64,000 bases of DNA from Pyrobaculum sp. (lineage in GTDB: Archaea > Thermoproteota > Thermoprotei > Thermoproteales > Thermoproteaceae), in contig JAVZUI010000003.1 in the NCBI GenBank assembly GCA_038879095.1, positions 9,640 through 73,639 on the forward strand, written 5' to 3'. Positions 1 through 47,375 of this stretch are shown here, one piece after another; position 1 is the first letter of the stretch, and every line of letters begins with the position of its first letter. The translations under genes were made by a program, and so were the position numbers. The notes beneath the pieces are model-generated. The model was not told the origin of the DNA, did no database searches, and worked only from the letters and a program-made list of their open reading frames with translations.

Positions 1-365
1 CAACACGCCCAAATTTAAAAGGTGAAGCCCCGACAACGGTCGACAGTGCGCCGCGTATTACCCAGCGGCAGAAACGCCTTGAAGAGACGTCACGAGGCGC
101 CCACAGCCAACTAAATACAACACAGAGCAAAGGCGAAAAGTCAGCATCCCCCTCACCAAGTATATAAAACACAGCCCAACAACGCCACGATGGCGATAAA
201 ATGCACCGTAGAGCCCCACGCCCCCGACGGCCCCTCCACCCACGTACAAGAAACGCCGACAGGAACCAACCACGCGTCTGTACACAGGGCCCCGTTAAAA
301 GACACGCCACATCGAGAAGAGCAGAACGGAGAGAAGCGCTTAAAGAGGGGACAAGTATTTAAAAC

Positions 366-1394
366 ATGACGAGACGTGTAAAGCTACCCTTCGCCGGCCG
401 CGAGGTGGAGTTCGTAGACCGCGAAGTGGCGCTAAAACAGTTCGAGGAGCTGGCGGAGAAGGGCACTCGCTTCCCCATCGTGGTCTATGGGCCTGAGGGG
501 TGTGGGAAGTCGGCATTGTTGAAGCAGGGGATGGAGGTTCTTAGAGAACGCGGCTATTCCGTCGCTTATGTCAGCCCTCTTGTGGATAAGGAGCGCGACC
601 GCCTGCTCTACACAGAGGATCTTGTGGATGTGGTGAAGGAGGTTTTGGGCGAAGTTGTCAGCAGATTCCCAGACCCTTTTAACAGCGCCAGGGCCTTGAT
701 TACAATAGCCGTAGAGGCGCTGTACCGCGCCGTAGAGAAAGGCAGAAACAGGAAGATCGCCGTTTTGGCAGACGACGTCTTCCAAGCCATTGGGTTAGAC
801 AAGGCAGAGCTTCTCGTGAAACAGTTCTTGAACATGATTGAGTGGCCCTCTATCAAATACGACAAAATCGTCATCGTCGTGGCATCGAGCGAGGGAGTTA
901 CTTGGGAGAGGGTGGGGAGGCACAGCTGGGCTGAGATTAAAACCATGTGGAACATGCCGAGGGAGGGGTTCAAACAGCTCTACGACCTACTGCCGGGGCC
1001 GAAGCCGCCTTTCGACGAGGTGTGGAAGTGGATCGGCGGAAACCCTCGGTATTTAGACCGCCTATATGTCGTAAAGTGGGACGTGGGAAAAGTCGTAGAT
1101 GAGACTGTGAGACGACTCATGGATAGGTTAGCCAGTTTAAACGACGTAGAGAAGAAAGTCCTCGTCAAGGCTCTTGAAGACCCAGACGCCCTGTTTCACA
1201 ACATTAGGGACGTACCAAACCTCGTGAATAGGCTAATCGAGTGGAACCTCATCACAAGAGTATACAACAAAGACCCATACTTCTGGGTAGACCAGCCCCC
1301 GCCTGAGAAAGACCCCGAGCTTGGGGTTGGGAAGTTCTATGCCTGGCAGACGCCGCTCCACCGCGAGGCTGTAAGGAGAGCCCTCGCCGCGTGA
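366..1394 (+). CDS. Archaeal P-loop ATPase (Arch_ATPase/AAA-like)
   Basis: 342-aa ORF with Walker A 'GPEGCGKS' near the N-terminus and a hydrophobic-DD Walker-B-like 'IAVLADD'. An AT-rich TATA-like element lies just upstream of the ATG. Confidence 0.7.
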   Translation: MTRRVKLPFAGREVEFVDREVALKQFEELAEKGTRFPIVVYGPEGCGKSALLKQGMEVLRERGYSVAYVSPLVDKERDRLLYTEDLVDVVKEVLGEVVSRFPDPFNSARALITIAVEALYRAVEKGRNRKIAVLADDVFQAIGLDKAELLVKQFLNMIEWPSIKYDKIVIVVASSEGVTWERVGRHSWAEIKTMWNMPREGFKQLYDLLPGPKPPFDEVWKWIGGNPRYLDRLYVVKWDVGKVVDETVRRLMDRLASLNDVEKKVLVKALEDPDALFHNIRDVPNLVNRLIEWNLITRVYNKDPYFWVDQPPPEKDPELGVGKFYAWQTPLHREAVRRALAA

Positions 1395-1683
1395 CGGCGC
1401 GACTGAGAGCCGATTGCAGTTTATGCGTTGCTACTGCCAGTGGCAGTCGTGAAGGAGCCTTTATGCCAGCCATGGCTCTGTGCAGTAAGAGGTAGGGCGA
1501 GGCCGACGCCAAGTCGTGCGCCTCAAGCTGATCCTTGTAAGGGACGTTTGGGGCTTTCGAAGAGTTCGTCCAGCCAAAGCGCCGCGATGGGCGTCCTGGC
1601 AGATGCAACAAGCTTCTGCGGGCTCTGCGTCCATGGGGGCGACGCGTCGTAGAAAAGATTTTAATCGATTAAATTAGGGGGAT

Positions 1684-2010
1684 GTGCTACACCCGAAGTG
1701 GCTACAGCGTCACGTCCGCCACTTTGAAGAGGCGCTTAGAGGCGCGGAGCGGGGGGACCACCGCTGGGCCTGCTACAACGCCTACGTCTCGGTGAGGGCC
1801 CTCCTGCTCGGCCTACTCGGCAGAGATCCCTACAAGCCCGACCCCGGCCTATACGCACTGGCCGCCCTCTTGAAAAAAGTGACGCGGCCCACAGTGGAGG
1901 TGGAGAAGTGCGCCAAGTGCCTAGAAGACTGGGAGGACAAGCCCGCCGTGAGGTGTTTAAAATGCGCCGAGCTCATAGCCGAGGCCCTACTGGCGCGTGC
2001 CCAGACTTGA
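1684..2010 (+). CDS. HEPN-domain-like small protein
   Basis: 108 aa, helical, with a pattern typical of HEPN N-terminal helices ('HFEEALRGAERGDHRWACYNAYVSVRALLLGLLG'). The perfect palindrome TTTAATCGATTAAA lies in its promoter. Confidence 0.4.
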   Translation: MLHPKWLQRHVRHFEEALRGAERGDHRWACYNAYVSVRALLLGLLGRDPYKPDPGLYALAALLKKVTRPTVEVEKCAKCLEDWEDKPAVRCLKCAELIAEALLARAQT

Positions 2011-2409
2011 AATGTTGATAAACGAGGTGAAGAGAGCCTTGGCCCTTGCTGAGAGCATTGTGGAAAGGCCTATTCAAGAGTTTCTGGACGACGACGAGGC
2101 CGTGTTTGCCCTGAGATACGCGGTGGTGGAGGTGGTGGAGGGGTGCGTCCAAATCGGAATCCACATCTTAAAAAAGCTGGGGACAAGAGCGGCAACGTAT
2201 TCTGAAGTGTTTTAAAGGCTTTATGAAAAGGCGTGGTAACCCGGTCCGTCGCCGAGTCTATGAGGCGTTTTGTAGGCCTTAGAAACCTAATAGTACACAG
2301 GTACTGGGAGGTGGACGACGAGAGGATGTACAAAGAGCTGAAGGAGGAGGGCTTAAGGCGGGTCCGGGAGTATCTTGAGTCGGTGGCTAAATATGCTTCG
2401 GTGGTTTGA
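1997..2409 (+). pseudogene. DUF86/HepT-like (HEPN toxin) gene, disrupted by an in-frame TAA and a -1 frameshift
   Basis: The N-terminal part is in frame 2 and ends at TAA 2213-2215. The C-terminal part, with the RX4HXY signature 'GLRNLIVHRYWEVD', is in frame 1 from about 2227 and ends at TGA 2407-2409. The junction reads EVF*..LYEK/GVVT. Confidence 0.6.
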
Positions 2410-2791
2410 GCTGAGCCCCGAGGCCAAGGAGGAGGTGGTGGATAAGATTAGGCGTGTGTTGGAGGGGGAGGGGGCCGTGTCGTTTGCCTACCTCTTCGGA
2501 AGCTTTCTAGAGGGCGGCCCCTTTAGAGATGTGGACGTGGGCGTCTACCTAGGCGTCGAGACGGACCCCATCGAAGCCGCAGTATACGCCGAGGAGCTAT
2601 CGGCCAAGCTCAGCCGCGAGGTGGGCCTCCCCGTGGACGTCGTCGTGCTGAACTTCGCCCCGTCGTGGATAAAGAGGGCGGCGTTAGAAGGCCGGCCGCT
2701 AGTCGTAAGGGACGAGGCCAAGTGGGCCGCCCTCTGGGCGTGCCTAATCGACGAGGAGTACCTATTCAAAACCGCGTTTGGAGAGAATTAA
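2393..2791 (+). CDS. Nucleotidyltransferase-domain protein (MNT-type partner of HEPN/DUF86)
   Basis: 'FAYLFGSFLEGGPFRDVDVGVYL' matches the GSx10-12D.D minimal NTase motif. The ATG at 2393 overlaps the DUF86 3' end. Confidence 0.75.
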   Translation: MLRWFELSPEAKEEVVDKIRRVLEGEGAVSFAYLFGSFLEGGPFRDVDVGVYLGVETDPIEAAVYAEELSAKLSREVGLPVDVVVLNFAPSWIKRAALEGRPLVVRDEAKWAALWACLIDEEYLFKTAFGEN

Positions 2792-3128
2792 GCCCACCCA
2801 ACCACTTCTAGCCAGCGTCGAGAGACATCAGCCCGAGACTGGCGCCTACGTTAGCGAAAAGCAGAGCCGGCTCTGTCGCGAACTACATACCTACATAGTA
2901 ACTACATAGGTATAAAGTCGCCACAGAAATAGAAAATCGTATCACGCGCCGTTCGGGAGACGGGCCAGCCTCGCCTGTTCCTGGCGTACTCTGGATGTTG
3001 CCAATTTTCACATACTCAGGCGACGTAAAAATTCTCGACGCGCCTGGGTGCGCAACTCCTAAGGCACAACTCTTATAAGTCGATACACAGGGCTATGCGT
3101 GGACGAGGCAGTGGTGGGGGTGGTTTGA

Positions 3129-3575
3129 GTGTTAGTCACCGTTGTAACGTCCATTGCCACGTTGGCGTATTGGATGGGTAGAAAATTTCAAAGACTAGAA
3201 AGTGAGGTGAAGACGGTTGGGGAGGAGCTTCGGGATAAAACGAACAGCCTTCTGCTCGGCTTTCAGAGCTATCAAGAGTTTTTTACAGAACTCCTCGCAA
3301 GCGATGACGTGTTGAGGGCGGAGAGGGTCCAGTCGGCGAAAAACGAGCCGTCAACGATGGCGAAGATGGCGATGGCTGACCCCCTTGCGAAAGAGGAGGT
3401 TGAGAGGTTGGAGGAGCTACTGCGGAAAGACGAGCTTACTCTAGAAGAGGCTCTAGAGCTAAGGGAAATAGCCAGGAAGGTGGTTAGAGAGTACGGCAAC
3501 TACGCGGAGGCTTGGAAGCTACACGCCTACGCCAGCCTCATGGTGGGGTTGGCCGGGTCAAAAAAGGCGGGTTAG
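3129..3575 (+). CDS. Hypothetical protein with N-terminal membrane anchor and coiled-coil region
   Basis: The 148-aa ORF has a hydrophobic N-terminus and charged heptad-like repeats. No recognised family. Confidence 0.35.
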   Translation: MLVTVVTSIATLAYWMGRKFQRLESEVKTVGEELRDKTNSLLLGFQSYQEFFTELLASDDVLRAERVQSAKNEPSTMAKMAMADPLAKEEVERLEELLRKDELTLEEALELREIARKVVREYGNYAEAWKLHAYASLMVGLAGSKKAG

Positions 3576-4069
3576 CAGACTTTGTTTAAGGCGGGGCCGT
3601 CCATGTCGTAGTAGTAGCCCTCCACCTCGGCGCCGAGGGGCTTAAGCCTTTCGCACGAGAGCTTGACGTTTTCTACGGCGGCTTTTTCCGCGTCTCCGCC
3701 TGCCCTCTTCACCGCCTCGGAGAGCTGGGCGGCAAGCGACGGCGGGGCCCTGCCCTGGGCCGCAAGCGCCACCGCGCCGCACCTCTTGTGGCCTATGACG
3801 TATATCCTGCGGACGCCCAGTTGCTCCACTGCGAACTTCAGCGAGTCGTATACCACGTCGGTCACCACGTTGCCAGCCACCCTCACGACGAACATGTCGC
3901 CGATGTTAGACAGAGTGAGTAGCTCCGGCGACAGCCGCGAGTCGGCGCAGGTCAAGACGGCGCATTTGGGAGACTGAGCCGCCGCGGTCCTCCTAATCGC
4001 CTCAAGCACCTCGCGCCCAGAGAGGCCGCCGGAGCCGGAGGCAACCCGGCTGAACCCCTCCAGGCACAT
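3572..4069 (-). CDS. Beta-class carbonic anhydrase
   Basis: Zinc-ligand motifs 'CADSR' and 'GHKRCGAV' (CxDxR ... HxxC) at the spacing typical of beta-CA. Confidence 0.8.
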   Translation of the reverse strand: MCLEGFSRVASGSGGLSGREVLEAIRRTAAAQSPKCAVLTCADSRLSPELLTLSNIGDMFVVRVAGNVVTDVVYDSLKFAVEQLGVRRIYVIGHKRCGAVALAAQGRAPPSLAAQLSEAVKRAGGDAEKAAVENVKLSCERLKPLGAEVEGYYYDMDGPALNKVC

Positions 4070-4091
4070 GACCCGGAGAAAGACCGGCCTT

Positions 4092-4101
4092 AAATTAATT
4101 G
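4092..4101. promoter_or_regulatory. AAATTAATTg (9/10 of the palindrome AAATTAATTT) between the carbonic anhydrase and GlcG genes
   Basis: Read directly from the sequence. It lies upstream of the TATA-like box of the GlcG-like gene. Confidence 0.35.
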
Positions 4102-4137
4102 TTGGAAATTTATTTAAAGCCCGCCGCGGAGGGTGGC

Positions 4138-4536
4138 GTGGACGTCGACGCCGTTTTCCAGGCGGTTAAGAGGGGCGTGGAGAAGGCCAAGTCGATGGGG
4201 ATAAAGGTGTCAATCGCCGTGGTGGACGCCTCGGGCCAAGTGGTGGCTGTGTACAGAATGGAGGGGGCCTATCCCTTCTCCCCCGACGTGGCGGTGAGGA
4301 AGGCGGTCACGGCGGCCTACTTCAAGAGGCCCACGGGCGAGCTGGCCGAGAGGGCTGCGCAGAACCTCCCCCTGTACCTCGGCTTAACAATACACGAAGG
4401 TCTAATATTCGGCAAGGGTGGACTGCCCGTGGTGAAAGACGGCGCGTTGAAGGCGGCCGTAGGAGTAAGCGGAGGGACCGGGGAACAGGACGAAGAAGTG
4501 GCAAAGACGGTGGCCGAGCACCTAGCCCACCTATAA
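4138..4536 (+). CDS. GlcG/DUF336 (HbpS-like, heme-degrading-type) protein
   Basis: 'IAVVDASGQVVAVYRMEGA', 'AVRKAVTAAYF' and 'GGLPVVKDGALKAAVGVSGGTGEQDEEVA' are typical of DUF336. The GTG at 4138 sits about 20 nt after a TATA-like 'AATTTATTTAAAG'. Confidence 0.75.
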   Translation: MDVDAVFQAVKRGVEKAKSMGIKVSIAVVDASGQVVAVYRMEGAYPFSPDVAVRKAVTAAYFKRPTGELAERAAQNLPLYLGLTIHEGLIFGKGGLPVVKDGALKAAVGVSGGTGEQDEEVAKTVAEHLAHL

Positions 4537-4564
4537 ACATGTAAGCCAGCAAAGACGGCAAGAC

Positions 4565-5053
4565 GTGCTCTCCAAGCCCTTGATCGACCTGGCGCGTTAT
4601 AGAGAGGTTAGGCTTAGGGAGGCGCTCTACGAGGCGGAGCTGGCGGAGCGGTTTTTAGAAGAGGGCTTGGTCCGCAACGCCGCCGGGAAGGCGTTCCAGG
4701 CCTGGAAGGCCCTCGTCGCCGCATACGCCGTAGACAAAATTGAGGATCTGAGGAAGGCGTACCCCGGCACGAAGAGGCTGAGAGGCGGAAGGCGCGCGGT
4801 GGAGAAGGCGGTGTGGGTGGTGGCAATCATGCCAACGACTCAGCTGAAAAAAGTGGCTCAAATAGTCGGCGGAGAGGTGGACGCATACACCGACAAGGCG
4901 CTTCGCATAAACGAGTACAGGTACAACGGCCCTGACCCCCAGGGCGTGTCGAGCATATACCCAGACGACTAGTCCGCGGCCAGAGACGTCAAAGCCCTAG
5001 CCCAGAAGGTCCGGGAGCTAGCCGCCGTGGCGTCCGGCGGATGGCGCCCCTAA
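4565..5053 (+). pseudogene. PaREP1/PaREP8-family (HEPN-like) protein with an in-frame TAG at 4970-4972
   Basis: 'REALYEAELAERFLEEGLVRNAAGKAFQAWKALVAAYA' is paralogous to the ORF at 13370. The 26 codons after the TAG stay in frame and align with the paralog's C-terminus. The gene may simply be a shorter intact ORF (4565-4972). Confidence 0.6.
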
Positions 5054-5446
5054 GCCAACGCACAAGCGGCCACCTCATACAGCACAAAGACTGCTCGGTT
5101 CAACTTAGCCTCCCTAAGCGCCGGTCTCGCGGCCTCAAAGGGAGGTGGCTCTCAGCGGCGGCATCCTCGACGTCGAGGGCCCAGTGGCGTCGTGGCAAGA
5201 GGCGGCGCGGAGAGTGACTTGCAAATTTTGTAGAACCGGCTTTGATGCCGGCGGCCTAAGGGGGCTTTCCCAATCTCTAGCTGAATTTACCGCCTCGCCG
5301 CATGTCCCCGCCGCGAGGCGGTGTCCCACTTTAACTGATCTGACCCGGTCTTAAGCAAAACGCGTTTGGCCTCGTGTAGAAGGCCTCTTTGTCGGAGGGC
5401 CCGTGTGAGGAACGCGGCGTAGAGAAGGGGGCTGAACGCGCTTTGT

Positions 5447-5456
5447 AAATTAATTA
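5447..5456. promoter_or_regulatory. AAATTAATTa (9/10) upstream of the ferredoxin/monooxygenase promoter
   Basis: About 15 nt upstream of the TATA-like AAAATATATAT. Confidence 0.35.
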
Positions 5457-5502
5457 AATTGTATTTTGGCAAAATATATATGACGGGGCTGAAATTAAAT
5501 TC

Positions 5503-5718
5503 ATGCGGCGGATCGAGGTTACGATAATACCTCAGAGGTGTAAGGGGTGTCCATACTGCGAGGAAGCTTTCCCGGAGTTGTTCAAAGTCAACAAGGTCGT
5601 CACGCTCGCCAGCGGAGAACACAGGGCATATCTGCCGATAGAGTACTTGCCTAAGGTCCAGAGGGCGTTCTTTAGCTGTCCAAACGGCGGGATTTCGTAT
5701 CGGATAGTCCTTGCATAG
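5503..5718 (+). CDS. Small single-cluster ferredoxin (CxxCxxC...CP type)
   Basis: 71 aa with 'RCKGCPYCEEAFPELF' and a distal 'SCPNGGI'. TATA-like 'AAAATATATAT' lies about 25 nt upstream. It directly precedes the monooxygenase genes. Confidence 0.55.
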   Translation: MRRIEVTIIPQRCKGCPYCEEAFPELFKVNKVVTLASGEHRAYLPIEYLPKVQRAFFSCPNGGISYRIVLA

Positions 5719-5870
5719 CGACGCGCCGTATCTAATACTCGGCTCAATTAATTTTTCTCTTCTGAAATAGATGATGTTCAATTTTAAATATTTAAGAAGT
5801 TGTTAAATTTAATCCGAATGAGAACTTTTTACTTTTGGACAAGTTTAAATACAAATTTAGACTGTTAGAC

Positions 5871-6660
5871 ATGCCTAATTTAGAGCCTAAAGAGCCTAGG
5901 TTGCCCACGAGGGACGAGTTCTATGACTTGGCTAACAAGTTCGAGTGGACGCCTAAGTACGTAAGTGAGGAGGAGCTGTTTCCCGTGGACATGCATGGTC
6001 TGCCCTACTTGCCCATAGACGTGTGGGCCGAGACCTACGACGCGCCGTATAAGGTGTTGTATAGGGAGTACGTCAAGAACCAGAGGTCGAAGGACCAGAT
6101 GGTGTTCGCGGTGAGGGACGCCGCTGCCAGGGCGGAGCTGGACAGGAAGCTAGACCCTGTGTACCACGGGGGAGCTTTTTGTTTTCACATAACCGCAATC
6201 CCCATACCAGAGTACACAGCTGTGGTTGGAGAGGGGCGCATGGCTAGGTTTGGCAAGTCCGGCGAGTGGCGCAACTTGGCCACATTCGGCATGATGGACG
6301 AGACAAGGCACGCCCAGTTGCAGATACTGCTGGCCCACGACAAGATTGGCATTAACCCCAAGTTCGCCTTTGGCCACAAGCTCTTCTGGGTAGACGGGTG
6401 GGTTTCGGTTTTCGCCCGTAAGTTCTTCGACGATATTATAACTGCGGCTGACGCCGTGGAAAACGCCTTGATGTTAACCTTCGGCTTCGGGGTTCACAAA
6501 CTTGCAATTCATCGCCTACGCCGCCATGGCCAACAAGGCCGGCGATTTCATGTTCGCAAGCACCACCGCAAGCATACAGACAGACGAGTCTCGCCACGCG
6601 CAGATAGGCCACCCTGTTCTGAAGACGTACGCAGATATTGCGAAGCTAAGTTCTAGGTGA
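5871..6660 (+). pseudogene. Soluble diiron monooxygenase hydroxylase alpha subunit, N-terminal half (frameshifted)
   Basis: 'PEY' followed 30 residues later by 'DETRH', and in the +1 frame 'GFTNLQFIAYAAMANKAGDFMFASTTASIQTDESRHAQ'. The reading frame changes at the G-run 6489-6492. The gene ends at TGA 6658-6660. Confidence 0.75.
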
Positions 6661-6666
6661 TTTTTT

Positions 6667-6676
6667 AAATTAATTT
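6667..6676. promoter_or_regulatory. Perfect palindrome AAATTAATTT upstream of the alpha C-half gene
   Basis: Lies in the 74-nt AT-rich spacer between the alpha halves, upstream of the TATA-like ATATATTTAAATT. Confidence 0.4.
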
Positions 6677-6734
6677 TTTGTCTTTTGAACTAATTTTGTG
6701 ATATATTTAAATTGAACAAAGTTATAATATATTA

Positions 6735-7661
6735 ATGGAACGAAAAAGTTTGGGAGAAACCAGGGAGCAAGTACGTGAGGCGCTGGCGGAACAACATAAG
6801 CTGATATCCACACGGTTGCTCAAGACTGTGGAATTTGCCACCAAGATCCGCGAGAGGGGGAGGCAGTATAAAGAGGCGGCGGAGTACTACATAGCGAAGT
6901 CCTTCTGGCTTAACTGGAGGGCCATAGCGGCCTTGACTGGGCCGTCCATGGACTACCTAACGCCGCTGGATGGCAGGATTATGTCCTTTAAGGAGTTCAT
7001 GAGGGAGTGGGTGGGCGCGCAGTTTAAGAGGCAACTGGAGGACTACGGGATCGAGTTGCCGTGGTACTGGAAGTACTGGGAGGCTGAGACCGAGTGGTGG
7101 CACCACGCCTTCGAGCTTGGCATATACCTGTGGAGGAGGACTTTGAATATACACAACAGAGGCCCGACCCCCGACGAGAGGAAGTGGCTGAACGAGAAGT
7201 ACGAAAACTGGGAGGAGAACTTCGGCAGGTACTGGGACCTCTACGCCAAGAACTACATAGAGGGGAGGCCGCCTCTGCCCAAGACGGCGCCGTTGTTATG
7301 TAATATGTGCCAGGTGCCTCTGATCAGCCTAAAGCCCGGCCGCCACGTCTTGATATACCAAGTGGAGTACAAAGGCAGGGTGTACAACTTCTGCTCCCCG
7401 GTGTGTATGTGGATATTTCTCAACGAGCCGCAGAGGTACGCCGGCCATATGTCGTACGTTGACAGAATTGCGGCCATGAAGATCAAGCTCAGCCCTGAGG
7501 CGCTTAAAAGCATTGAGAGGCTGTGGGACGAGATCATTTGGAACATGGGCTTCACAGAGGCAGGCGAGGCGGGGCTTGACCCCACCAACGGCGCGTGGGC
7601 CCTGTTGTACAAGGAGAAGGACCCCGAGTACGATAAAAGAGTCGCCCGCTGGACGTCATGA
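6735..7661 (+). CDS. Soluble diiron monooxygenase hydroxylase alpha subunit, C-terminal half (separate gene)
   Basis: 'ALTGPSMDYLTPLDGRIMSFKEFMREWVGAQFKRQLEDYGIELPWYW' matches the post-helix-F region of MmoX/DmpN-type alpha subunits. A YHS-like 'CNMCQVP...YKGRVYNFCSPVCMWIF' is present. It has its own AT-rich promoter. Confidence 0.85.
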   Translation: MERKSLGETREQVREALAEQHKLISTRLLKTVEFATKIRERGRQYKEAAEYYIAKSFWLNWRAIAALTGPSMDYLTPLDGRIMSFKEFMREWVGAQFKRQLEDYGIELPWYWKYWEAETEWWHHAFELGIYLWRRTLNIHNRGPTPDERKWLNEKYENWEENFGRYWDLYAKNYIEGRPPLPKTAPLLCNMCQVPLISLKPGRHVLIYQVEYKGRVYNFCSPVCMWIFLNEPQRYAGHMSYVDRIAAMKIKLSPEALKSIERLWDEIIWNMGFTEAGEAGLDPTNGAWALLYKEKDPEYDKRVARWTS

Positions 7662-8074
7662 GCGCCGTGCCCACGATCTTCATGCACGAAGAGGACTTTG
7701 TGTGGCAGGTCTTCTTCGTGCCGGCGGAGTTCACAGTGAAGCAGGCCACGGACTTCCTAATGTCGCTGATTACAGGAGCCACCGTGTGGCCTAAGAACAA
7801 GGAGGTGCGGATGGTTAAGTACAAGACCGGCGAGGTGCTTGACCCCAACGCGAAGTTCGGCGACGTGGTTAAGCCGGGGGAGCCCGTCTTGCTGGTCTGG
7901 TGGCCCCCCAAGGAGGAGTGGTGGAAGTCGAAGGACGACCCCGTCTTCAGATTGGCCCGGGAGACTGAGGAGCTTATGAAAACCAAGGCGCCTAGGTCGC
8001 CCATGGTGATATTCAAAGAGGAGTTCGAAAGGCTGAGCATCATCAAAAGGCTGGAACGGGAGGGCAAGATATGA
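7658..8074 (+). CDS. TmoB-like small (gamma) monooxygenase subunit with C-terminal extension
   Basis: The N-terminal 85 aa ('MSAVPTIFMHEEDFVWQVFFV...RMVKYKTGEVL...PGEPVLLVW') follow the pattern I recall for T4moB. ATGA overlap with the upstream gene. Confidence 0.55.
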   Translation: MSAVPTIFMHEEDFVWQVFFVPAEFTVKQATDFLMSLITGATVWPKNKEVRMVKYKTGEVLDPNAKFGDVVKPGEPVLLVWWPPKEEWWKSKDDPVFRLARETEELMKTKAPRSPMVIFKEEFERLSIIKRLEREGKI

Positions 8075-8469
8075 TCACCGTCACCGTTGGCGACTATCCC
8101 GGCGACTACGTAGCCGTCTGCAACGTGGACGAGCTTGTGGACGGAGAGGCGCAGGTGTACAAGGTGGGGCAGTACGAGGTGTACGTGGTGTTTAAAGACG
8201 GCGAGATTAGGGCGTACTACGGCAGATGCCCACACGCCTTCGGCGAGCTGGCCCCCTCCGACTTCGACGGGGAGAAGATAGTGTGCAACGTCCACCAGTG
8301 GGAGTTCGAGCCCCTCACCGGCGTCTCCATAAACCCCAAGGGCTCCCGCCTCTTTGCCTTGAAACACGAGGTGAGAGACGGCGTACTCTACGTAAAGGTG
8401 CCGAAGATGCCCGCGTCGGAGTTTAAGGAGAAGTACTTCAAGATGTACGGGGGGGAGGGCCATGAGTGA
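8071..8469 (+). CDS. Rieske [2Fe-2S] ferredoxin (TmoC/TouC-like)
   Basis: 'CPHAFGEL' and 'CNVHQWEF' (CxH-x17-CxxH). 132 aa. ATGA overlap. Confidence 0.85.
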   Translation: MITVTVGDYPGDYVAVCNVDELVDGEAQVYKVGQYEVYVVFKDGEIRAYYGRCPHAFGELAPSDFDGEKIVCNVHQWEFEPLTGVSINPKGSRLFALKHEVRDGVLYVKVPKMPASEFKEKYFKMYGGEGHE

Positions 8470-8812
8470 GGCTGCGGTCCGGGAGTGGGCGCCTGAGCTG
8501 GAGCAGTACCTGATAACTGAAGACAAGCTGCCCAAGGACTTGGTGGGCCCCGTCTTCATGAAGAGGGAGCTGGCCATATACGCCACGTTGGCGATTGCCG
8601 AAGACAACCCGGACACCTTCGTGGGGGTGCTGGACAGAGGGCTTTACATAAGAGTGGTGGGCAACAAGAGGCTGACGTTGAGGCGGAGGACGCTTGAGGA
8701 CTTGGCAGGCAGGGCCGTGAGGTTCCCCGGAGAGGTGGAGGAGATGATGTCGGCGTTCGCCGGTAAAATTAGGGTTACTGGAGAAGAAATATTGTGGTAC
8801 CTAGAGCTATGA
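8462..8812 (+). CDS. MmoB/DmpM-family monooxygenase effector protein
   Basis: 'VGPVFMKRELA...AEDNPDTFVGVLDRGLYIRVVGNKRLTLRRRTLEDLAGR...MSAFAGKI' is typical of TmoD/MmoB effectors. Confidence 0.8.
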   Translation: MSEAAVREWAPELEQYLITEDKLPKDLVGPVFMKRELAIYATLAIAEDNPDTFVGVLDRGLYIRVVGNKRLTLRRRTLEDLAGRAVRFPGEVEEMMSAFAGKIRVTGEEILWYLEL

Positions 8813-9930
8813 GCTGGGACGAAGTCTACAAAAAGATATTTGCCAAGGCCTCTTTCAACGAGAAGTTCTTCCGCGACGTGGAGTACCAGGGCTACAAGAG
8901 GACTTGGGTCACGTGGCCCATGCTGGAGAAGAAGATCGGCCGGAAGAGGCCTAGCGAGTACCAAGCGGTGAGCTACGCGCTGTCTTACTGGTCTCCTGAC
9001 CCCAACTCGCCCACGTATAGATACCTGGGCACGCCCTTTGAGCTAGGCACAGACTACCACATACAGAAGTGGTATATCTACTTCAGAGACCGGTCTCCGC
9101 TAGTCTCGGCAGTGGTCCAGGGAGGCGGTTGGCACGACTACCACGACCCACACGAGCTGGTCTACTGGAAGTACAACACAATGATGGACGAGGAGGAAAC
9201 ATTCGTCGATAGGCTATTGGAACAGATCGTGGCCACGAAACACGACACAAAGCTCTCGGAGGAACTGTTGAAGTTCTACAGAGACTACTACGACCCGCTC
9301 CGCTTCGTCTGGCACGCAATGCAGATGCACTGCGCCTACCTCTCTCAAATGGCCCCCACCTCCACTGTGCTGAACATATTTACGTTTATGGCCATGGACT
9401 ACTTGAGGAGGGTGCAGAGGATTGCCCAGAGAGTCAAGATGTTAGACATAGTGTACCCAGAATTCGGCTTCGGCCGGGCGGGGAGGAGGCAGTTTGAAGA
9501 GGACCCACACCTCCAGCCCACTAGACAAGTGTTAGAACAAATGCTAGTGGCTTACGACTACACAGAGGCCCTGGCCTCCTTCGCGCTGGCGGTGAAGCCC
9601 GCCTTAGACGCAATCTATTTGTCGGGATTCGCCAAGCTGGCTGAGCTGAATGGAGACAGGTACTTAGGCCAGATACACCTATCCTTCTTGAAGGATAGCC
9701 AACGCCACAGAGATCAGTTAGTGGCGTTGTTTAAGTACGCGTTTGAGAAAGCGCCGTCGGCCAAGGACGTGGTTAGGGGAATTGCAGACAGGTGGAGGAG
9801 GGCGGTGAGAGACGCCGCGAGGGCGCTAGGCCCCGTCTTGGAGTCCATGCCGGCGAAACTGCCGCTGGACGCCGTGGTGGCGGAGGTAGAGGAGGAGTGG
9901 AGAAGGCTGGACTCCGACATAGGGCTATGA
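8809..9930 (+). CDS. Soluble diiron monooxygenase hydroxylase beta subunit
   Basis: About 373 aa and ferritin-like helical, with 'WHDYHDPHELVYWKYNTMMDEEETFVDRLL' typical of TmoE/DmpL beta subunits. The ATG at 8809 overlaps the effector stop (ATGA). Confidence 0.75.
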   Translation: MSWDEVYKKIFAKASFNEKFFRDVEYQGYKRTWVTWPMLEKKIGRKRPSEYQAVSYALSYWSPDPNSPTYRYLGTPFELGTDYHIQKWYIYFRDRSPLVSAVVQGGGWHDYHDPHELVYWKYNTMMDEEETFVDRLLEQIVATKHDTKLSEELLKFYRDYYDPLRFVWHAMQMHCAYLSQMAPTSTVLNIFTFMAMDYLRRVQRIAQRVKMLDIVYPEFGFGRAGRRQFEEDPHLQPTRQVLEQMLVAYDYTEALASFALAVKPALDAIYLSGFAKLAELNGDRYLGQIHLSFLKDSQRHRDQLVALFKYAFEKAPSAKDVVRGIADRWRRAVRDAARALGPVLESMPAKLPLDAVVAEVEEEWRRLDSDIGL

Positions 9931-10388
9931 GTAGCCGGGAGCTTGTGGTGGGGGCTCTAAGGCAGGTGTACGACCCCGAGCTCCCTGAAAATATTTACGA
10001 CCTCGGCCTCATAAGAGAGGTCTACCTAGACGAGGCCAATAGAAGAGTGAAGGTGACGATGTTGTTCACGTCTGGGAGGATGTGCCCCGTGGCCGACATG
10101 ATGGCGGTGCAGGTGAAATACGCCATTAAACGCGCCCTACCTGAGTACGACGTAGACGTCAAGGTGGACTTTGAGACTAGGTGGACGCCTAAGATGGCCA
10201 CCCCGGAGGGGAGGAGGGCCTTAGAGGAGATTTTTGGAAGGGAGTACGTCGAATCTCTGTCGAGGGGCAAGGTCGTCGTGAGGGTACAACAGCCGCCGCC
10301 GGACTTCGACCCCATAGCGTATATGAGAGAAAGAGTAGAGGCCAGGTATAAAGTCTTTAAGGAGTGGCTAGAGCGCAACAAGGTGTAA
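9927..10388 (+). CDS. DUF59 (MIP18/PaaD/SufT-like) Fe-S or metal-assembly protein
   Basis: 'VYDPELPENIYDLGLIREVYLDE...VKVTMLFTSGRMCPVADMM' is the canonical DUF59 core. ATGA overlap with the beta subunit stop. Confidence 0.75.
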   Translation: MSSRELVVGALRQVYDPELPENIYDLGLIREVYLDEANRRVKVTMLFTSGRMCPVADMMAVQVKYAIKRALPEYDVDVKVDFETRWTPKMATPEGRRALEEIFGREYVESLSRGKVVVRVQQPPPDFDPIAYMRERVEARYKVFKEWLERNKV

Positions 10389-12172
10389 TGTCTTTTGTCG
10401 CCTTTTTTAAACAGATTCCCGATTTGAATTTTATTAGGCTTGACCCAGCCACTAAGAGAATCGTCAGAGAGGGCGTGCCCAACGTCATGAATCCCTTTGA
10501 CTACCACGCCATAGAGGGGGCCCTCTACCTTAGAGACGCCTTGGGGGGAAGGGCCGTGGCGGTCACCATGGGGCCGCCCAGTTTTAAACAGTCTGCGGAA
10601 GAGGCTCTGGCCATGGGCGTGGACTTGGTGGTCCATCTATCAGACAAGGCCTTTGCCGGAAGCGACACCTTGGCCACCTCAAGGGCACTGGCCCGCGCCG
10701 TGAAGGCATTTGCCCCGGATTACAAGGCAATATTTGCGGGCAAGTACTCGTGGGACGGCGACACGGGGCACGTGGGCCCCCAGACCGCCGAGCTTTTGGG
10801 CATTCCGCACGTAAGCGGCGTCGTGGAGGTCAGGATAAAAGGCGAAAGGGCGTCGGTGAGGAGAGAGGCGGAGGACGGCGAAGAGGAGCTGGAGGTGGAA
10901 CTGCCAGCATTGTTCACAGTGACCGACAGGGCCTTTAACCCAAGGCCTCCGGGCAAGCCAAAGGGCCGCTACGTAGTGGCCACCGCCGCAGACATCGGCG
11001 TAGATCTTTCCGAAGTGGGGGCCGCCGGGTCGCCCACTGTGGTGGAGGACTTATACGAAGAGAGGTGGGAGAGGGCCGGCGGCGTGGCGGTAGACGCCCG
11101 AAACGACCCAGATATAGGCGCTGAGGCGCTGTGGCGCTGGCTTAAGACAGTGGTTTCTTCTGCGGATCGGGGAGGCGCCGTCAGAGAGGCGCCCGTTAGG
11201 GAGAGAGGTCCCCGAGTGGTGGCGGTGGTGGCCGATGACAAGTGGGACGGGGGGCTTAGGAGGGTGTCTCTAGAGCTTTTAGGGAAGGCGGTGGAGCTGG
11301 CCGAGGCGGTGGGGGGCACCGTCGTTGCGCTATACGGCGGCTTAGAGGACCCCAGGACCCTAATTGCACACGGCGCGGACGAGGTGGTGTGGATAAGAGA
11401 GGCAGACCCCTTTGACATATACGCCCACGGGGAGGCGCTGGCGGAGTTTATACTTAAACGCAAGCCCTGGGCCGTGCTGGCCCCCTCCACCACCTACGGG
11501 AGGGACCTCATGTCGAGAGTTGCGGCGAGGCTGGGCCTAGGGTTGACCGCAGACTGTGTGGACTTCTCGGTTAGGGGGGGCGAGCTGTTGCAACACAAGC
11601 CCGCGTTCGGCGGAGGCGTCGTGTCTATTATACGGTCCAAGACGTACCCCCAGATGGCCACCGCGAGGCCCGGCATGTTCGAACCGCTGGCCCCAAACCC
11701 TAAGAGGAGTGGAGAAGTTTTAGAAATCAAGGCGCGCCCGAGGATGAGGACCACCTCGAGGACCCCCCGAGCCTCCGAGTGGCCAGACCCCCAAGAGGCC
11801 GGGGTGGTGGTGGGCGTTGGGAGGGGGTTTAAGAAGCCCGAAAACTTAAAGCCGGCCTTAGACTTGGCCAAGGCGCTGGGCGCGGCGGTGGCAGCCACTA
11901 GAAACGTGGTGCTGGCCGGCTGGCTTCCGTACCGGCTACAGGTAGGGGTCTCCGGCAAGGCCATAGCCCCCTTGGCCTACCTCGCCCTGGCAATTAGAGG
12001 CGACGTGAACCACGTGGTGGGGATCAGGAGGGCGAGGCACATAGCCGCCGTGAACATCAACCCCAGGGCCGAGATATTTAAAATCGCAGAGCTCGGCGTA
12101 GTGGGGGACGTCAATAAGATCGTCCCCCTCCTCTTAGAACGAGCGGTTAAGGAGCCGCTCTTTAAAAATTAA
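10388..12172 (+). CDS. Fused electron transfer flavoprotein, beta-alpha (FixA-FixB type) in one polypeptide
   Basis: The N-terminal half is ETF-beta-like ('NPFDYHAIEGAL...GSDTLATSRALARAV...DGDTGHVGPQTAELLGIPHV'). The C-terminal half is ETF-alpha-like ('TTYGRDLMSRVAARLGLGLTADC', 'QVGVSGKAIAPLAYLALAIRGDVNHVVGI'). TAATG overlap with the DUF59 stop. Confidence 0.85.
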   Translation: MSFVAFFKQIPDLNFIRLDPATKRIVREGVPNVMNPFDYHAIEGALYLRDALGGRAVAVTMGPPSFKQSAEEALAMGVDLVVHLSDKAFAGSDTLATSRALARAVKAFAPDYKAIFAGKYSWDGDTGHVGPQTAELLGIPHVSGVVEVRIKGERASVRREAEDGEEELEVELPALFTVTDRAFNPRPPGKPKGRYVVATAADIGVDLSEVGAAGSPTVVEDLYEERWERAGGVAVDARNDPDIGAEALWRWLKTVVSSADRGGAVREAPVRERGPRVVAVVADDKWDGGLRRVSLELLGKAVELAEAVGGTVVALYGGLEDPRTLIAHGADEVVWIREADPFDIYAHGEALAEFILKRKPWAVLAPSTTYGRDLMSRVAARLGLGLTADCVDFSVRGGELLQHKPAFGGGVVSIIRSKTYPQMATARPGMFEPLAPNPKRSGEVLEIKARPRMRTTSRTPRASEWPDPQEAGVVVGVGRGFKKPENLKPALDLAKALGAAVAATRNVVLAGWLPYRLQVGVSGKAIAPLAYLALAIRGDVNHVVGIRRARHIAAVNINPRAEIFKIAELGVVGDVNKIVPLLLERAVKEPLFKN

Positions 12173-12175
12173 TTT
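12166..12175. promoter_or_regulatory. Perfect palindrome AAATTAATTT upstream of the alcohol dehydrogenase gene
   Basis: Overlaps the ETF stop codon, 78-88 nt before ATG 12254. Confidence 0.4.
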
Positions 12176-12253
12176 TTTAACATTATATATCAATTATACT
12201 TTTTTAAATTATTTTTTAGAAAAAATTAAATTTTATAATATTCATTTTTAGAC

Positions 12254-13342
12254 ATGCGCGCGGCATTATTAACCCAGTTCCAAAAGCCTCTTGAGATAAA
12301 GGAGGTGGACGTGCCGAGGCCCAAGAGAGGCGAGGTTCTGATACAAGTACAGGCCTGTGGCATATGTAGGTCAGATTGGCACCTCTGGAGAGGCGACCCC
12401 TCGCTGGTGGCGTACATGGAGTGGTCCGGCGGGAGGCTGCCCATAATTCCAGGCCACGAGGTGGCTGGAAAGGTGGTGGAAGTAGGCGAAGGGGTCGAGA
12501 ACGTCCAGGTGGGCGACGTGGTGGTGGCCCCCGCCTCGTCCACAGGCGACAACAGGTCCTGCAGGTTCTGCAGGGAGGGCAACAGCAATATATGTGAACA
12601 TCTGTGGATACCCGGCTTCGGCACCCACGGCTGCTACGGCGAATATATGTTGGTCCCCGCCGGGTCCGTCGTAGACCTCGTGAAAGTCCCGCCGGGGGTA
12701 AGGCCTGAACACGCGGCAATTACTGGCTACGGGTTTGGGACGGCTTGGAACGCCCTGGTTGTTAAGGGAAGTATTAAGCCCGGCGAGACCCTTCTGGTTA
12801 CCGGCGTGGGGGGAATGGGCCTCAGCGCGGTGGCCATCGCAGTGGCCTCAGGCGCCAAGGTGGTAGCCGTAGACGTCAACCCAGCCTCTGTGGACAAGGC
12901 CAGGAAACTGGGCGCAGTGGCGGCCTACCACTACTCCGGCGACCCGAAGGAGCTTGCCAAGCTGATCAACGAGGAGATAGTGAAGACCTACGGCATGGTG
13001 GACGCGGTATTCGACTCCACCGGCAACCCCGACGTACTCTCAGCCGTGCTCCCCGCAGTGAGACCCCAAGGCAGGGTACTACTGGCGGGGCTCATGATGA
13101 AAGGCAAGGAGATATGGCCACTCGCCTCCGACATAGTGGTGGCAAGGGAGTTGACCATACAGGGTGTGTTGATGCTGGCATCGCAGAAGTACGACAACAT
13201 CTTCAAGTTGATGACGGAGGGCAGGGTCAACCTAGAACCCGTCATATACAGAAGGATCTCGCTGGACGAGGTCAACGACGCCTACGACGAGATGACCAAA
13301 TATAAAAACGCCGGCCGTTTCGTAATTACTAAATTCCGCTAA
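12254..13342 (+). CDS. Zn-dependent alcohol dehydrogenase (MDR family)
   Basis: 'GICRSDWH', 'GHEVAGKVVEVGEGV', a structural-Zn cysteine cluster 'CRFCREGNSNIC', and a Rossmann motif 'VTGVGGMG'. Confidence 0.85.
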   Translation: MRAALLTQFQKPLEIKEVDVPRPKRGEVLIQVQACGICRSDWHLWRGDPSLVAYMEWSGGRLPIIPGHEVAGKVVEVGEGVENVQVGDVVVAPASSTGDNRSCRFCREGNSNICEHLWIPGFGTHGCYGEYMLVPAGSVVDLVKVPPGVRPEHAAITGYGFGTAWNALVVKGSIKPGETLLVTGVGGMGLSAVAIAVASGAKVVAVDVNPASVDKARKLGAVAAYHYSGDPKELAKLINEEIVKTYGMVDAVFDSTGNPDVLSAVLPAVRPQGRVLLAGLMMKGKEIWPLASDIVVARELTIQGVLMLASQKYDNIFKLMTEGRVNLEPVIYRRISLDEVNDAYDEMTKYKNAGRFVITKFR

Positions 13343-13369
13343 ATCAATTTTTTAGATTGTCATTTTTTA

Positions 13370-13867
13370 ATGTGCGTGGAACTAACAAAGCCTTGGATCG
13401 ACTTGGGGAAATACAAGAGGGATAGGCTAAGGGAGGCCCTCTACGAGGCGGAGCTGGCTGAGGAGTTTCTAAAAAACGGACTGTTGAGGAACGCCGCTGG
13501 GAAGGCCTTCCAAGCGGTCAAGGCTCTTCTAGCCGCAGTCGCCGTCGATCATAGAGATAAGATCGTGGCGTCTTTCAAGGGGAAGAGGAGGCTTGGGGAG
13601 GGCAAGGTGGTGGAGCGGGGGGACTGGATCATCGCCGTGATGCCCACTTCGAAAATGCGAGAGGTGGCGGCGCTTGTGGGAGACAGAGACCTGCGCCTAG
13701 CCGTCGAGCTTGCTCTAAACCTACACGAGTTTCAGTACAACGGCCTCGACAAAGACGCCGAGGTCTCCCGCTACTCTTCAGAAGAGCTTGTTAGAAAAGA
13801 CGTACTAGACGTGGTTAACTACGTCAAACGCGTCGCAAGCCAGCTTCCTGAAGCAACGTCAAGTTAG
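13370..13867 (+). CDS. PaREP1/PaREP8-family (HEPN-like) protein
   Basis: 'DRLREALYEAELAEEFLKNGLLRNAAGKAFQAVKALLAAVAV' is a paralog of the ORF at 4565. Confidence 0.75.
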   Translation: MCVELTKPWIDLGKYKRDRLREALYEAELAEEFLKNGLLRNAAGKAFQAVKALLAAVAVDHRDKIVASFKGKRRLGEGKVVERGDWIIAVMPTSKMREVAALVGDRDLRLAVELALNLHEFQYNGLDKDAEVSRYSSEELVRKDVLDVVNYVKRVASQLPEATSS

Positions 13868-13930
13868 GCAGATCACCTATATCATTCAAGCCGTCAAACA
13901 AGTATAAAGTCCTACACATTGCTGGCGCGG

Positions 13931-14028
13931 GGCTCCGCCGAGGGTAAACAGAGACTTGCTTACTTGTGGAGACGAGTAACGAAATACGCGCCTCGGGGGC
14001 TTGTTCCGATCAGAGGCTCGGCGGAGCC
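13931..14028. repeat. Perfect 12-bp inverted repeat GGCTCCGCCGAG / CTCGGCGGAGCC enclosing 74 nt
   Basis: Arms at 13931-13942 and 14017-14028, in the intergenic region between the PaREP1 and FAH genes. Confidence 0.6.
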
Positions 14029-14075
14029 TTAACTGAGCGACGGGACTAAGGCTGTTTTGCCGCCGCCGCGTTGCG

Positions 14076-14085
14076 AAATTAATTT
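14076..14085. promoter_or_regulatory. Perfect palindrome AAATTAATTT upstream of the FAH-family gene
   Basis: 56-66 nt before ATG 14142, upstream of the TATA-like CTTTTTAAAAGG. Confidence 0.4.
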
Positions 14086-14141
14086 TATTTGTCATGATAT
14101 AATTTGAAAAACTTTTTAAAAGGGGATGGTGGTAAGGGGTT

Positions 14142-16027: not shown

Positions 16028-16035
16028 ATTAATTT
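16026..16035. promoter_or_regulatory. Perfect palindrome AAATTAATTT upstream of the PaaA-like diiron gene
   Basis: Overlaps the MDR gene stop, 47-56 nt before ATG 16082. Confidence 0.4.
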
Positions 16036-16081
16036 GCATAATTTTTCGACACTTTTTTATCGCGTTGAGGACACGGAGGAT

Positions 16082-43121: not shown

Positions 43122-43224
43122 GAGCTGGAAAAATTATGTTTTTAATGAATATTTTGGTGAAAGAAATGCAGTGAATAAATTACACAATAATTAAAAAATC
43201 TAATTCTATTTCTATCTATTTCTA

Positions 43225-44115: not shown

Positions 44116-44143
44116 GTCCTCACCACGAACTATATTTTAAAGC

Positions 44144-44158
44144 ATTAACATTGTTAAT
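44144..44158. promoter_or_regulatory. Palindromic operator ATTAACATTGTTAAT (TTAAC-N3-GTTAA) abutting the ZIP transporter TATA box
   Basis: Perfect 15-bp palindrome. On the gene strand it is followed by GC and TTTAAAATA about 25 nt before the ZIP ATG. Confidence 0.55.
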
Positions 44159-44185
44159 ACTTTCTTCTAGAATTAAAAATAAATT

Positions 44186-44698: not shown

Positions 44699-44705
44699 CT
44701 GAAAA

Positions 44706-45431: not shown

Positions 45432-45451
45432 GTCGTATTAAGCCCCCTCGT

Positions 45452-47374: not shown

Positions 47375-47375
47375 G

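What the first reader, a model, noticed from the sequence alone, without database searches (positions are those of the whole stretch)
6471..6500. Apparent 5-nt deletion in the alpha subunit removes a diiron Glu ligand and shifts the frame
- Seen: frame 3 reads 'ALMLTFGFG' and then turns into Arg/His-rich nonsense.
- From 6493 the +1 frame reads 'FTNLQFIAYAAMANKAGDFMFASTTASIQTDESRHAQIGHP', ending at TGA 6658-6660.
- Established (recollection of MmoX/DmpN-type sequences): the conserved segment is 'F-E-T-G-F-T-N', in which the Glu is iron ligand E209.
- The observed DNA 'TTC GGC TTC GGGG TTC ACA' is what would remain if 5 nt (for example GAGAC of TTC-GAG-ACG-GGG-TTC) were lost.
- So the catalytic subunit lacks one of six metal ligands and is frameshifted, while the other seven genes of the operon are intact.
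- Either the hydroxylase was inactivated very recently or this is an assembly artefact. A 5-nt loss is not a typical homopolymer miscall.
Basis: partly seen in the sequence, partly recalled or inferred. Interest (0 to 1): 0.65.

Follow-up and report, generated by a model that had tools for sequence, protein, structure and literature searches.

The report
Five-base deletion breaks archaeal monooxygenase gene
One Pyrobaculum strain has lost five bases from the catalytic-subunit gene of its phenol/toluene monooxygenase, which removes an iron-binding glutamate and shifts the reading frame; this is an ordinary, very recent gene inactivation (less likely an assembly error) in a gene cluster that related archaea have also lost.

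Summary
Frame 3 (ATG 5871) reads ...ALMLTFGFG and then nonsense to TAG 6654-6656. Frame 1 resumes GFTNLQF...TDESRH... to TGA 6658-6660.

Five independent assemblies of the same Pyrobaculum population are 99.9-100% identical to the window. All read TTCGGCTTCGAGACGGGGTTC (FGFETGF). It is the only indel in about 36 kb that could be compared.

The lost residues align with T4moA E197 (iron ligand) and T198. The frameshift also puts E231 and H234 out of frame.

The gene is only the N-terminal half of the alpha subunit. The C-terminal half (6735-7661) is a separate gene, a normal archaeal arrangement (Sso1227/Sso1228).

I read this as a genuine, very recent loss-of-function allele (about 0.72) rather than an assembly artefact (about 0.22). 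No reads or second assembly cover the site on this haplotype.

The same cluster has decayed independently in P. oguniense TE7, a P. arsenaticum-like lineage and Ca. Aramenus, and is reported lost in one Sulfolobus islandicus group.

This is an ordinary pseudogene, so interest is low.

The parts
5871..6660 (+). tmoA-N: the N-terminal half-gene of the split hydroxylase alpha subunit. It is disrupted. The frame-3 ORF runs 5871-6656 (261 aa, of which the last 56 are nonsense). The native frame resumes at 6490 and stops at TGA 6658-6660.
   Evidence: PF02332 match at E 5e-59 on the joined reading. 99% identical to the intact P0001 and 90% to the P. arsenaticum toluene hydroxylase. Aligns to T4moA residues 5-246.
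6487..6490 (+). Junction of the 5-nt deletion (CGAGA, GAGAC or AGACG; 2-nt CG microhomology). It removes the codons for Glu-Thr of FETGFTN, equivalent to T4moA E197 and T198, and shifts the frame.
   Evidence: Alignments to L001, L016, L017, L019-L021, L025 and L026. All of them carry TTCGGCTTCGAGACGGGGTTC.
6661..6734 (+). Spacer of 12% G+C between the two alpha half-genes. It contains a TTTAAAT element about 27 nt upstream of ATG 6735. I infer that this is an archaeal TATA box driving independent transcription of tmoA-C and the downstream genes.
   Evidence: Sequence and G+C content. The promoter function is inferred, not tested.
6735..7661 (+). tmoA-C: the C-terminal half-gene of the alpha subunit, with a YHS domain. 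Intact.
   Evidence: PF04945 match. Residues 46-289 align to T4moA/ToMO-A 251-489. 100% identical to the siblings.
7658..8074 (+). TmoB-like gamma subunit. Intact.
   Evidence: Weak PF06234 match at E 4e-4. Conserved position in the P. arsenaticum and Metallosphaera operons.
8071..8469 (+). Rieske ferredoxin (TmoC-like). Intact.
   Evidence: PF00355 match.
8462..8812 (+). Effector protein (MmoB/DmpM/TmoD family). Intact.
   Evidence: PF02406 match.
8809..9930 (+). Hydroxylase beta subunit (TmoE-like). Intact.
   Evidence: PF02332 match. The identical protein is found on five other contigs.
9927..10388 (+). Accessory protein of the FeS_assembly_P (DUF59-type) family. Full length, but it carries V21E in the conserved DPE[LI]P[VI]NIYDLG motif (SNP at 9988).
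   Evidence: PF01883 match. SNP and orthologue comparison.
10388..12172 (+). Fused ETF beta-alpha flavoprotein (594 aa). I presume it is the electron donor of the system.
   Evidence: PF01012 and PF00766 matches. Same position in the P. arsenaticum operon.
12254..13342 (+). Zn-dependent alcohol dehydrogenase linked to the cluster. It carries C159Y at the predicted catalytic zinc ligand (SNP at 12729).
   Evidence: The orthologue lies between tmoA-N and tmoA-C in P. arsenaticum.

Best explanation
The window comes from a Pyrobaculum strain that carries a toluene/phenol-type four-component diiron monooxygenase operon of the archaeal kind, in which the alpha subunit is encoded by two genes. In this haplotype a 5-nt deletion, probably by slipped mispairing at CG(AGA)CG, has hit the N-terminal alpha gene.

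The deletion removes the codons for the iron-ligand Glu (T4moA E197) and the next Thr. It also shifts the frame, so the second E-x-x-H motif (E231, H234) is no longer translated. The product is a 261-aa protein with a 56-residue nonsense tail and only three of the six iron ligands. The hydroxylase therefore cannot assemble an active diiron centre, and the whole system is non-functional even though the other seven genes are intact.

The event is very recent. Sequence downstream of the deletion is still 100% identical to intact siblings.

Shown here: the deletion, its exact sequence, the intact state in sibling assemblies, and the residue equivalences. Inferred: that the deletion exists in the cells rather than only in the assembly, that it abolishes activity, and that the downstream genes are still transcribed from their own promoter.
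For: - Exact difference: L001 (ENA ERZ28593179 scaffold_1309) matches window 1-16384 at 99.95%, with 3 SNPs and a single 5-nt gap. The NCBI MAGs GCA_038893295.1 and GCA_038816755.1 and the Logan assemblies SRR18577005 and SRR27215044 match at 99.8-99.9%, with that gap as the only indel and at most 2 SNPs, and carry the 5 nt.
- Assembly quality: about 36 kb of the window could be compared with siblings. This is the only indel outside a clearly divergent recombinant tract. No other split genes were seen among the ORF pairs checked. A lone 5-nt loss in non-repetitive sequence is not a typical base-calling or graph error.
- Haplotype: the same haplotype has two further non-conservative changes in the cluster. 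One is ADH C159Y at the residue aligning with the SsADH Cys154 zinc ligand. The other is V21E in a conserved motif. Both are reproduced in an independent Logan assembly (SRR27170998, L018, 100% identical over 8,066 nt).
- Precedent: the operon has decayed independently elsewhere. A P. arsenaticum-like lineage has a 1-nt deletion in alphaN, W113* in alphaC and a 1-nt deletion in beta, shared by four independent assemblies. P. oguniense TE7 (complete genome) keeps only alphaN residues 20-150 fused to ETF residues 384-587. Ca. Aramenus keeps a remnant with stops. The Sulfolobus islandicus 'Blue' strains are reported to have lost the homologous island (PMC3283564).
- Ligand identity: the HMMER alignment to T4moA places EXXH at 134-137 and 231-234, and the deleted Glu at 197.
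Against: - The frameshifted allele is seen only in the window. Neither the 261-aa nor the 273-aa product is on record anywhere else.
- The only independent assembly with the window's SNP haplotype (Logan SRR27170998) is fragmented. It does not cover 4478-6676.
- MAG contigs from this population can be chimeric. L013 has a junction that breaks purE.
- Overall divergence between the window and its siblings is tiny, and 4 of 5 SNPs are non-synonymous genome-wide. The extra substitutions are therefore only weak evidence for relaxed selection on this cluster.
Confidence: 0.72

Rival explanations
1. Assembly or consensus artefact. The organism's gene is intact, and the 5-nt gap arose during assembly, polishing or binning of a mixed-strain metagenome.
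For: Every other assembly of this population that covers the site has the intact sequence. The deleted allele has no second witness. The population is a mixture of strains, and at least one sibling MAG contig looks chimeric.
Against: De Bruijn assemblers do not invent a 5-nt deletion without reads that span it, and the local repeat is only 2-6 nt. Long-read errors would leave many 1-nt homopolymer indels, yet none is seen in about 36 kb compared. The window's private SNPs are confirmed by another assembly, so its haplotype is real.
Confidence: 0.22
2. The deletion is real, but it is a minority allele in a polymorphic population rather than fixed in a clonal lineage. Functional and non-functional hydroxylase alleles would then coexist in the same spring. 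This is a sub-case of the best explanation.
For: Intact alleles with otherwise identical flanks occur in at least five assemblies. The Logan assembly that carries the window's SNPs breaks up around the alphaN region. Presence/absence polymorphism of the homologous island is reported for coexisting S. islandicus strains (PMC3283564).
Against: Allele frequencies cannot be obtained here. The contig breaks at 4478 and 6676 are not at the deletion site.
Confidence: 0.3
3. The allele is a functional variant. Either programmed ribosomal frameshifting restores the frame, or the enzyme naturally lacks this Glu.
For: Programmed frameshifting has been described in a crenarchaeon (the S. solfataricus fucosidase; from my own knowledge, not tested here).
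Against: Siblings with identical flanking sequence encode the normal in-frame FETGFTN. All intact homologues keep the Glu. Even a perfect +1 shift would give FGFGFTN, without the ligand and with helix E shortened by two residues.
Confidence: 0.02

Closest known systems
Saccharolobus (Sulfolobus) solfataricus P2 monooxygenase cluster Sso1225-Sso1233, with Sso1227 and Sso1228 annotated as the TmoA amino-end and carboxy-end fragments
   Same: The alpha subunit is split into an N-terminal gene of about 263-268 aa and a C-terminal gene of about 303-310 aa. The alphaN proteins are 72% identical. The TmoB, TmoC, TmoD and TmoE homologues and a metal-sulfur-cluster accessory gene are the same, and a Zn-ADH is associated with the cluster. 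The S. solfataricus cluster is induced 59-384-fold on phenol (PMC7820114).
   Different: The S. solfataricus alphaN is intact. Its cluster lists a TodA-like ferredoxin reductase (Sso1225), whereas the Pyrobaculum operon carries a fused ETF beta-alpha gene. The window's alphaN is frameshifted.
Toluene 4-monooxygenase hydroxylase TmoA (Pseudomonas mendocina KR1; PDB 3DHG, 5TDS) and ToMO TouA (PDB 1T0Q)
   Same: Same fold and motifs. E about 5e-69 for alphaN against residues 5-246, and about 1e-55 for alphaC against residues 251-489. The sibling allele has all six ligand positions.
   Different: The bacterial alpha is one polypeptide of about 500 aa. Here there are two genes, and in the window E197 and T198 are deleted and E231 and H234 are out of frame.
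Decayed copies of the same operon in Pyrobaculum oguniense TE7, a P. arsenaticum-like MAG lineage and Ca. Aramenus sulfurataquae
   Same: Independent inactivation of the same cluster in close relatives, by frameshifts, a nonsense codon and multi-kb deletions.
   Different: Those copies carry several lesions or have lost most genes. The window has a single lesion with no subsequent decay, so it is the earliest stage.
Loss of the toluene-4-monooxygenase island in the 'Blue' group of Sulfolobus islandicus from hot spring M.16 (Cadillo-Quiroz et al. 2012, PMC3283564)
   Same: The same kind of archaeal cluster is present in some coexisting strains and lost in others.
   Different: That case is whole-island absence. 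Here a point lesion leaves the island in place.

Membership tests
TmoA/TouA-type (toluene/benzene group) soluble diiron monooxygenase alpha subunit | Phenol_Hydrox (PF02332) four-helix-bundle domain with strong similarity to solved TmoA/TouA structures | tested here: met
   PF02332 at E 5e-59. T4moA at E 5e-69.
TmoA/TouA-type (toluene/benzene group) soluble diiron monooxygenase alpha subunit | All six diiron ligands in one reading frame (T4moA E104, E134, H137, E197, E231, H234) | tested here: not met
   In the window E197 is deleted and E231 and H234 lie in another frame. The sibling allele P0001 meets this feature. The window copy is therefore a pseudogene of this family, not a functional member.
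TmoA/TouA-type (toluene/benzene group) soluble diiron monooxygenase alpha subunit | Operon partners: beta and gamma subunits, Rieske ferredoxin and an MmoB/DmpM-type effector | tested here: met
   PF02332 (beta), PF06234 (weak), PF00355 and PF02406 matches in the genes at 7658-9930.
TmoA/TouA-type (toluene/benzene group) soluble diiron monooxygenase alpha subunit | NADH:ferredoxin oxidoreductase (TmoF/TouF type) in the operon | tested here: not met
   No such gene lies between 5871 and 13342. A fused ETF beta-alpha gene occupies the last position instead. Only the window was examined.
Archaeal split-alpha monooxygenase (Sso1227/Sso1228 type) | The alpha subunit is encoded by separate N- and C-terminal genes that together cover the bacterial alpha | tested here: met
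   alphaN covers T4moA 5-246 and alphaC covers 251-489. The same split is seen in P. arsenaticum, Metallosphaera, Acidianus and Saccharolobus.
Archaeal split-alpha monooxygenase (Sso1227/Sso1228 type) | Phenol-inducible expression and phenol-to-catechol activity | not testable with these tools
   Known only for S. solfataricus (PMC7820114).
Recent pseudogene (loss-of-function allele) | A frame disruption relative to near-identical intact alleles, with no compensating change | tested here: met
   One 5-nt gap against five intact assemblies. Identity is 100% on both sides of the gap.
Recent pseudogene (loss-of-function allele) | The lesion is supported by sequencing reads or an independent assembly of the same haplotype | not testable with these tools
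   No reads are available. Logan SRR27170998 shares the haplotype but does not cover the site.

The most novel reading that the evidence does not exclude
The archaeal phenol/toluene monooxygenase cluster may be repeatedly selected for loss, or repeatedly released from selection, in hot-spring Crenarchaeota. On this reading the window catches the first step. One haplotype would carry three near-simultaneous damaging hits in the cluster: the frameshift in tmoA-N, the zinc-ligand change C159Y in the linked ADH, and V21E in the accessory protein. It would coexist with intact alleles in the same population, so aromatic oxidation would be a polymorphic, 'leaky' trait.
Probability: 0.2. Interest if true: 0.4.

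Novelty: new member of a known kind. Interest (0 to 1): 0.2.

Why it matters
For annotation, the alpha gene of this contig should be flagged as a frameshifted pseudogene (or as a site to re-check). The strain should not be credited with phenol or toluene hydroxylation. The gap between 6660 and 6735 should not be read as a second lesion, because the split alpha is normal in archaea.

For biology, this is one more dated, minimal example of how an accessory catabolic cluster starts to decay in a natural archaeal population. More advanced stages are available in sister lineages for comparison. It opens no new question.

Tried and rejected
- Exact-pattern scans for the junction, with or without the 5 nt, found nothing in JGI metagenome contigs or in GTDB representative genomes.
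- Look-ups of the frameshifted product (261 aa and 273 aa) found no other contig.
- I tried to find a Logan SRR27170998 contig that spans the site by way of neighbouring genes (carbonic anhydrase, HbpS-like, PaREP1, alphaC). The results showed only that this assembly is broken between about 4478 and 6676. One look-up failed for technical reasons and was repeated.
- The genome contigs relative search returned only three loci, because the peptide pattern it chose was narrow.
Only 3 SNPs separate the window from its siblings in the 16.4 kb that holds the cluster, and 2 more elsewhere. Of these five, 4 are non-synonymous.
- No second alphaN paralogue in the window could compensate.
- Rfam and tRNA scans of the window were empty.
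- Programmed frameshifting and a naturally Glu-less enzyme were considered and rejected, because sibling alleles with identical flanks are in frame with the Glu.

Full report
**Observation.** From ATG 5871, frame 3 reads a good Phenol_Hydrox-type protein up to ...AADAVENALMLTFGFG (codon GGG 6489-6491). It then reads 56 Arg/His-rich nonsense residues and stops at TAG 6654-6656. From 6490, frame 1 reads GFTNLQFIAYAAMANKAGDFMFASTTASIQTDESRHAQIGHPVLKTYADIAKLSSR and stops at TGA 6658-6660. Joining the two readings gives a 262-aa protein that matches Pfam PF02332 end to end (E 5e-59).

**What the gene is.** The window is from a Pyrobaculum. It has PaREP1-family genes, and the closest named homologue is the P. 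arsenaticum 'toluene hydroxylase' at 90% identity.

The operon at 5871-12172 has eight genes:
- alpha-N
- alpha-C, with a YHS domain
- a TmoB-like gamma subunit
- a Rieske ferredoxin
- an MmoB/DmpM effector
- the beta subunit
- a FeS_assembly_P accessory protein
- a fused ETF beta-alpha flavoprotein

The alpha subunit is encoded in two genes. alpha-N aligns to T4moA residues 5-246. alpha-C (6735-7661) aligns to residues 251-489. The two genes are separated by a 74-nt spacer of 12% G+C.

This split is not damage. It is shared by P. arsenaticum, Acidianus, Metallosphaera and Saccharolobus. In S. solfataricus P2 the two genes are annotated as the TmoA amino-end and carboxy-end fragments (Sso1227, Sso1228), and they belong to a cluster induced 59-384-fold on phenol (PMC7820114).

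**The lesion.** The database holds a protein (P0001) identical to the joined window protein except that it reads FGFETGFTN. Its contig (ENA ERZ28593179 scaffold_1309, locus L001) aligns to window 1-16384 at 99.95%, with three SNPs and one gap of 5 nt. The gap lies in GGCTT[CGAGA]CGGGGTTC.

Four further independent assemblies match the window at 99.8-99.9% around the site, with this gap as the only indel and at most two SNPs. All carry the 5 nt:
- NCBI MAG GCA_038893295.1
- NCBI MAG GCA_038816755.1
- Logan SRR18577005
- Logan SRR27215044

**Consequence for the protein.** In the HMMER alignment to T4moA, the E-x-x-H motifs fall at 134-137 and 231-234, and the Glu before them falls at 104. The Glu of FETGFTN falls at 197 and the Thr of FTN at 201. 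These are the positions of the published T4moA diiron ligand set; that set is from my knowledge of the T4moH structures, and the numbering was checked on the alignment.

The deletion therefore removes E197 and T198 and puts E231 and H234 out of frame. Three of the six ligands remain. All intact homologues in the alignment, down to 45% identity, keep FETGF[T/S]N. There is no paralogue in the window. Even a hypothetical +1 ribosomal shift would give a protein without the ligand. I conclude that the allele cannot make an active hydroxylase. This is an inference, not an assay.

**Real or artefact?** No reads are available, so this cannot be settled.

*For a real allele:*
- About 36 kb of the window can be compared with near-identical siblings: 1-16384, 42048-49559 and 51715-63853. 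This is the only indel, so the assembly is not indel-prone. No other split genes were seen among the adjacent ORF pairs checked.
- A 5-nt loss in non-repetitive sequence is typical neither of base-calling errors nor of graph-assembly errors.
- The window's private SNPs (9988 T>A, 12729 G>A) are reproduced in an independent Logan assembly of run SRR27170998, which is 100% identical to window 6676-14741. The haplotype therefore exists.
- Both of those SNPs are non-conservative at conserved positions of cluster genes. V21E lies in the DPE[LI]P[VI]NIYDLG motif of the accessory protein. C159Y lies in the linked Zn-ADH, where Cys159 sits in a GCGF motif and aligns with Cys154 of the S. solfataricus ADH (PDB 1JVB). 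I know that residue as a catalytic zinc ligand.

*Against a real allele:*
- The frameshifted product is on record nowhere else.
- The SRR27170998 assembly is broken between about 4478 and 6676 and does not cover the site.
- This population is a mixture of strains in which MAG contigs can be chimeric (L013).
- With only five SNPs in the regions compared, four of them non-synonymous, no dN/dS argument can be made.

I put a genuine allele at about 0.72 and an artefact at about 0.22.

**Context: recurrent decay.** The same operon has decayed independently in relatives.
- A P. arsenaticum-like lineage has a 1-nt deletion in alpha-N (codon 232), W113* in alpha-C and a 1-nt deletion in beta. It is seen in four independent assemblies: ENA ERZ936123, GCA_038741535.1, Logan ERR14373512 and GCA_900093705.1. 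The P. arsenaticum type-strain genome is intact.
- The complete genome of P. oguniense TE7 keeps only alpha-N residues 20-150 joined to ETF residues 384-587.
- A Ca. Aramenus MAG keeps an alpha-N remnant with a stop codon, followed by the tail of the accessory gene.

Loss of this accessory catabolic cluster is thus a known, repeated event. The window shows its earliest visible stage, with one lesion and no later decay (100% identity from 6490 to 9987).

**Verdict.** The feature is an ordinary, very recent loss-of-function allele, or less likely an assembly error, in a known type of archaeal monooxygenase operon. Novelty: a new member of a known kind. Interest is low (0.2). The most novel reading not excluded is that the cluster is recurrently lost under selection and is polymorphic within this population (probability about 0.2).

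Noticed in passing
window 12729 (ADH gene 12254-13342): The window haplotype has C159Y in the cluster-linked Zn-dependent alcohol dehydrogenase. Cys159 sits in a GCGF motif and aligns with Cys154 of S. solfataricus ADH (1JVB), a catalytic zinc ligand. The sibling assemblies and P. arsenaticum keep Cys. The change is reproduced in Logan SRR27170998.
   Followed up: partly
window 9988 (gene 9927-10388): V21E in the conserved DPE[LI]P[VI]NIYDLG motif of the FeS_assembly_P accessory protein. Orthologues have V or I at this position. The change is also present in Logan SRR27170998.
   Followed up: partly
window 10388-12172: The operon ends with a single 594-aa fusion of the ETF beta and alpha subunits, where bacterial systems have an NADH oxidoreductase. 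In the P. arsenaticum-like MAG lineage (L005-L008) the same region is two overlapping genes of 332 and 231 aa. Which state is ancestral was not resolved.
   Followed up: no
window 6661-6734 and 5820-5870: Both alpha half-genes are preceded by very AT-rich stretches (12% G+C between them). Each stretch has a TTTAAA(T) element about 25-27 nt upstream of the ATG. This suggests separate archaeal promoters and leaderless transcripts. Not tested.
   Followed up: no
window 49431-51714: A tract only about 89% identical to the otherwise near-identical sibling assemblies. It ends inside the first 28 codons of the EF-2 gene, where all 18 differences are synonymous. It looks like a recombination import from a more distant lineage.
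   Followed up: partly
L013 7512-7611 (GCA_038893295.1 contig JAWARR010000009.1), equivalent to window about 49431-49559: This sibling MAG contig switches from 100% to 89% identity with the window, with overlapping window coordinates at the switch. Its purE (AIRC) gene is split into 139-aa and 63-aa pieces. It is probably a chimeric assembly junction between strains.
   Followed up: no
window 4973-5870: About 900 nt of 52% G+C upstream of alpha-N without a convincing gene. It holds only a 164-aa ORF on the minus strand with no Pfam match and a 71-aa ORF on the plus strand. In P. arsenaticum this position holds MarR and protoglobin genes, which have no detectable remnant here.
   Followed up: partly
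window 12254-13342 compared with L009 8789-9874: Gene order differs between species. The orthologous Zn-ADH lies between alpha-N and alpha-C in P. arsenaticum, but downstream of the ETF gene in the window.
   Followed up: no
window 16882-18868: A small Rieske protein is followed by a 565-aa protein whose only Pfam match is a C-terminal PEP-utilising mobile domain. They lie next to the aromatic-catabolism genes (FAA hydrolase, ADH). Function not examined.
   Followed up: no
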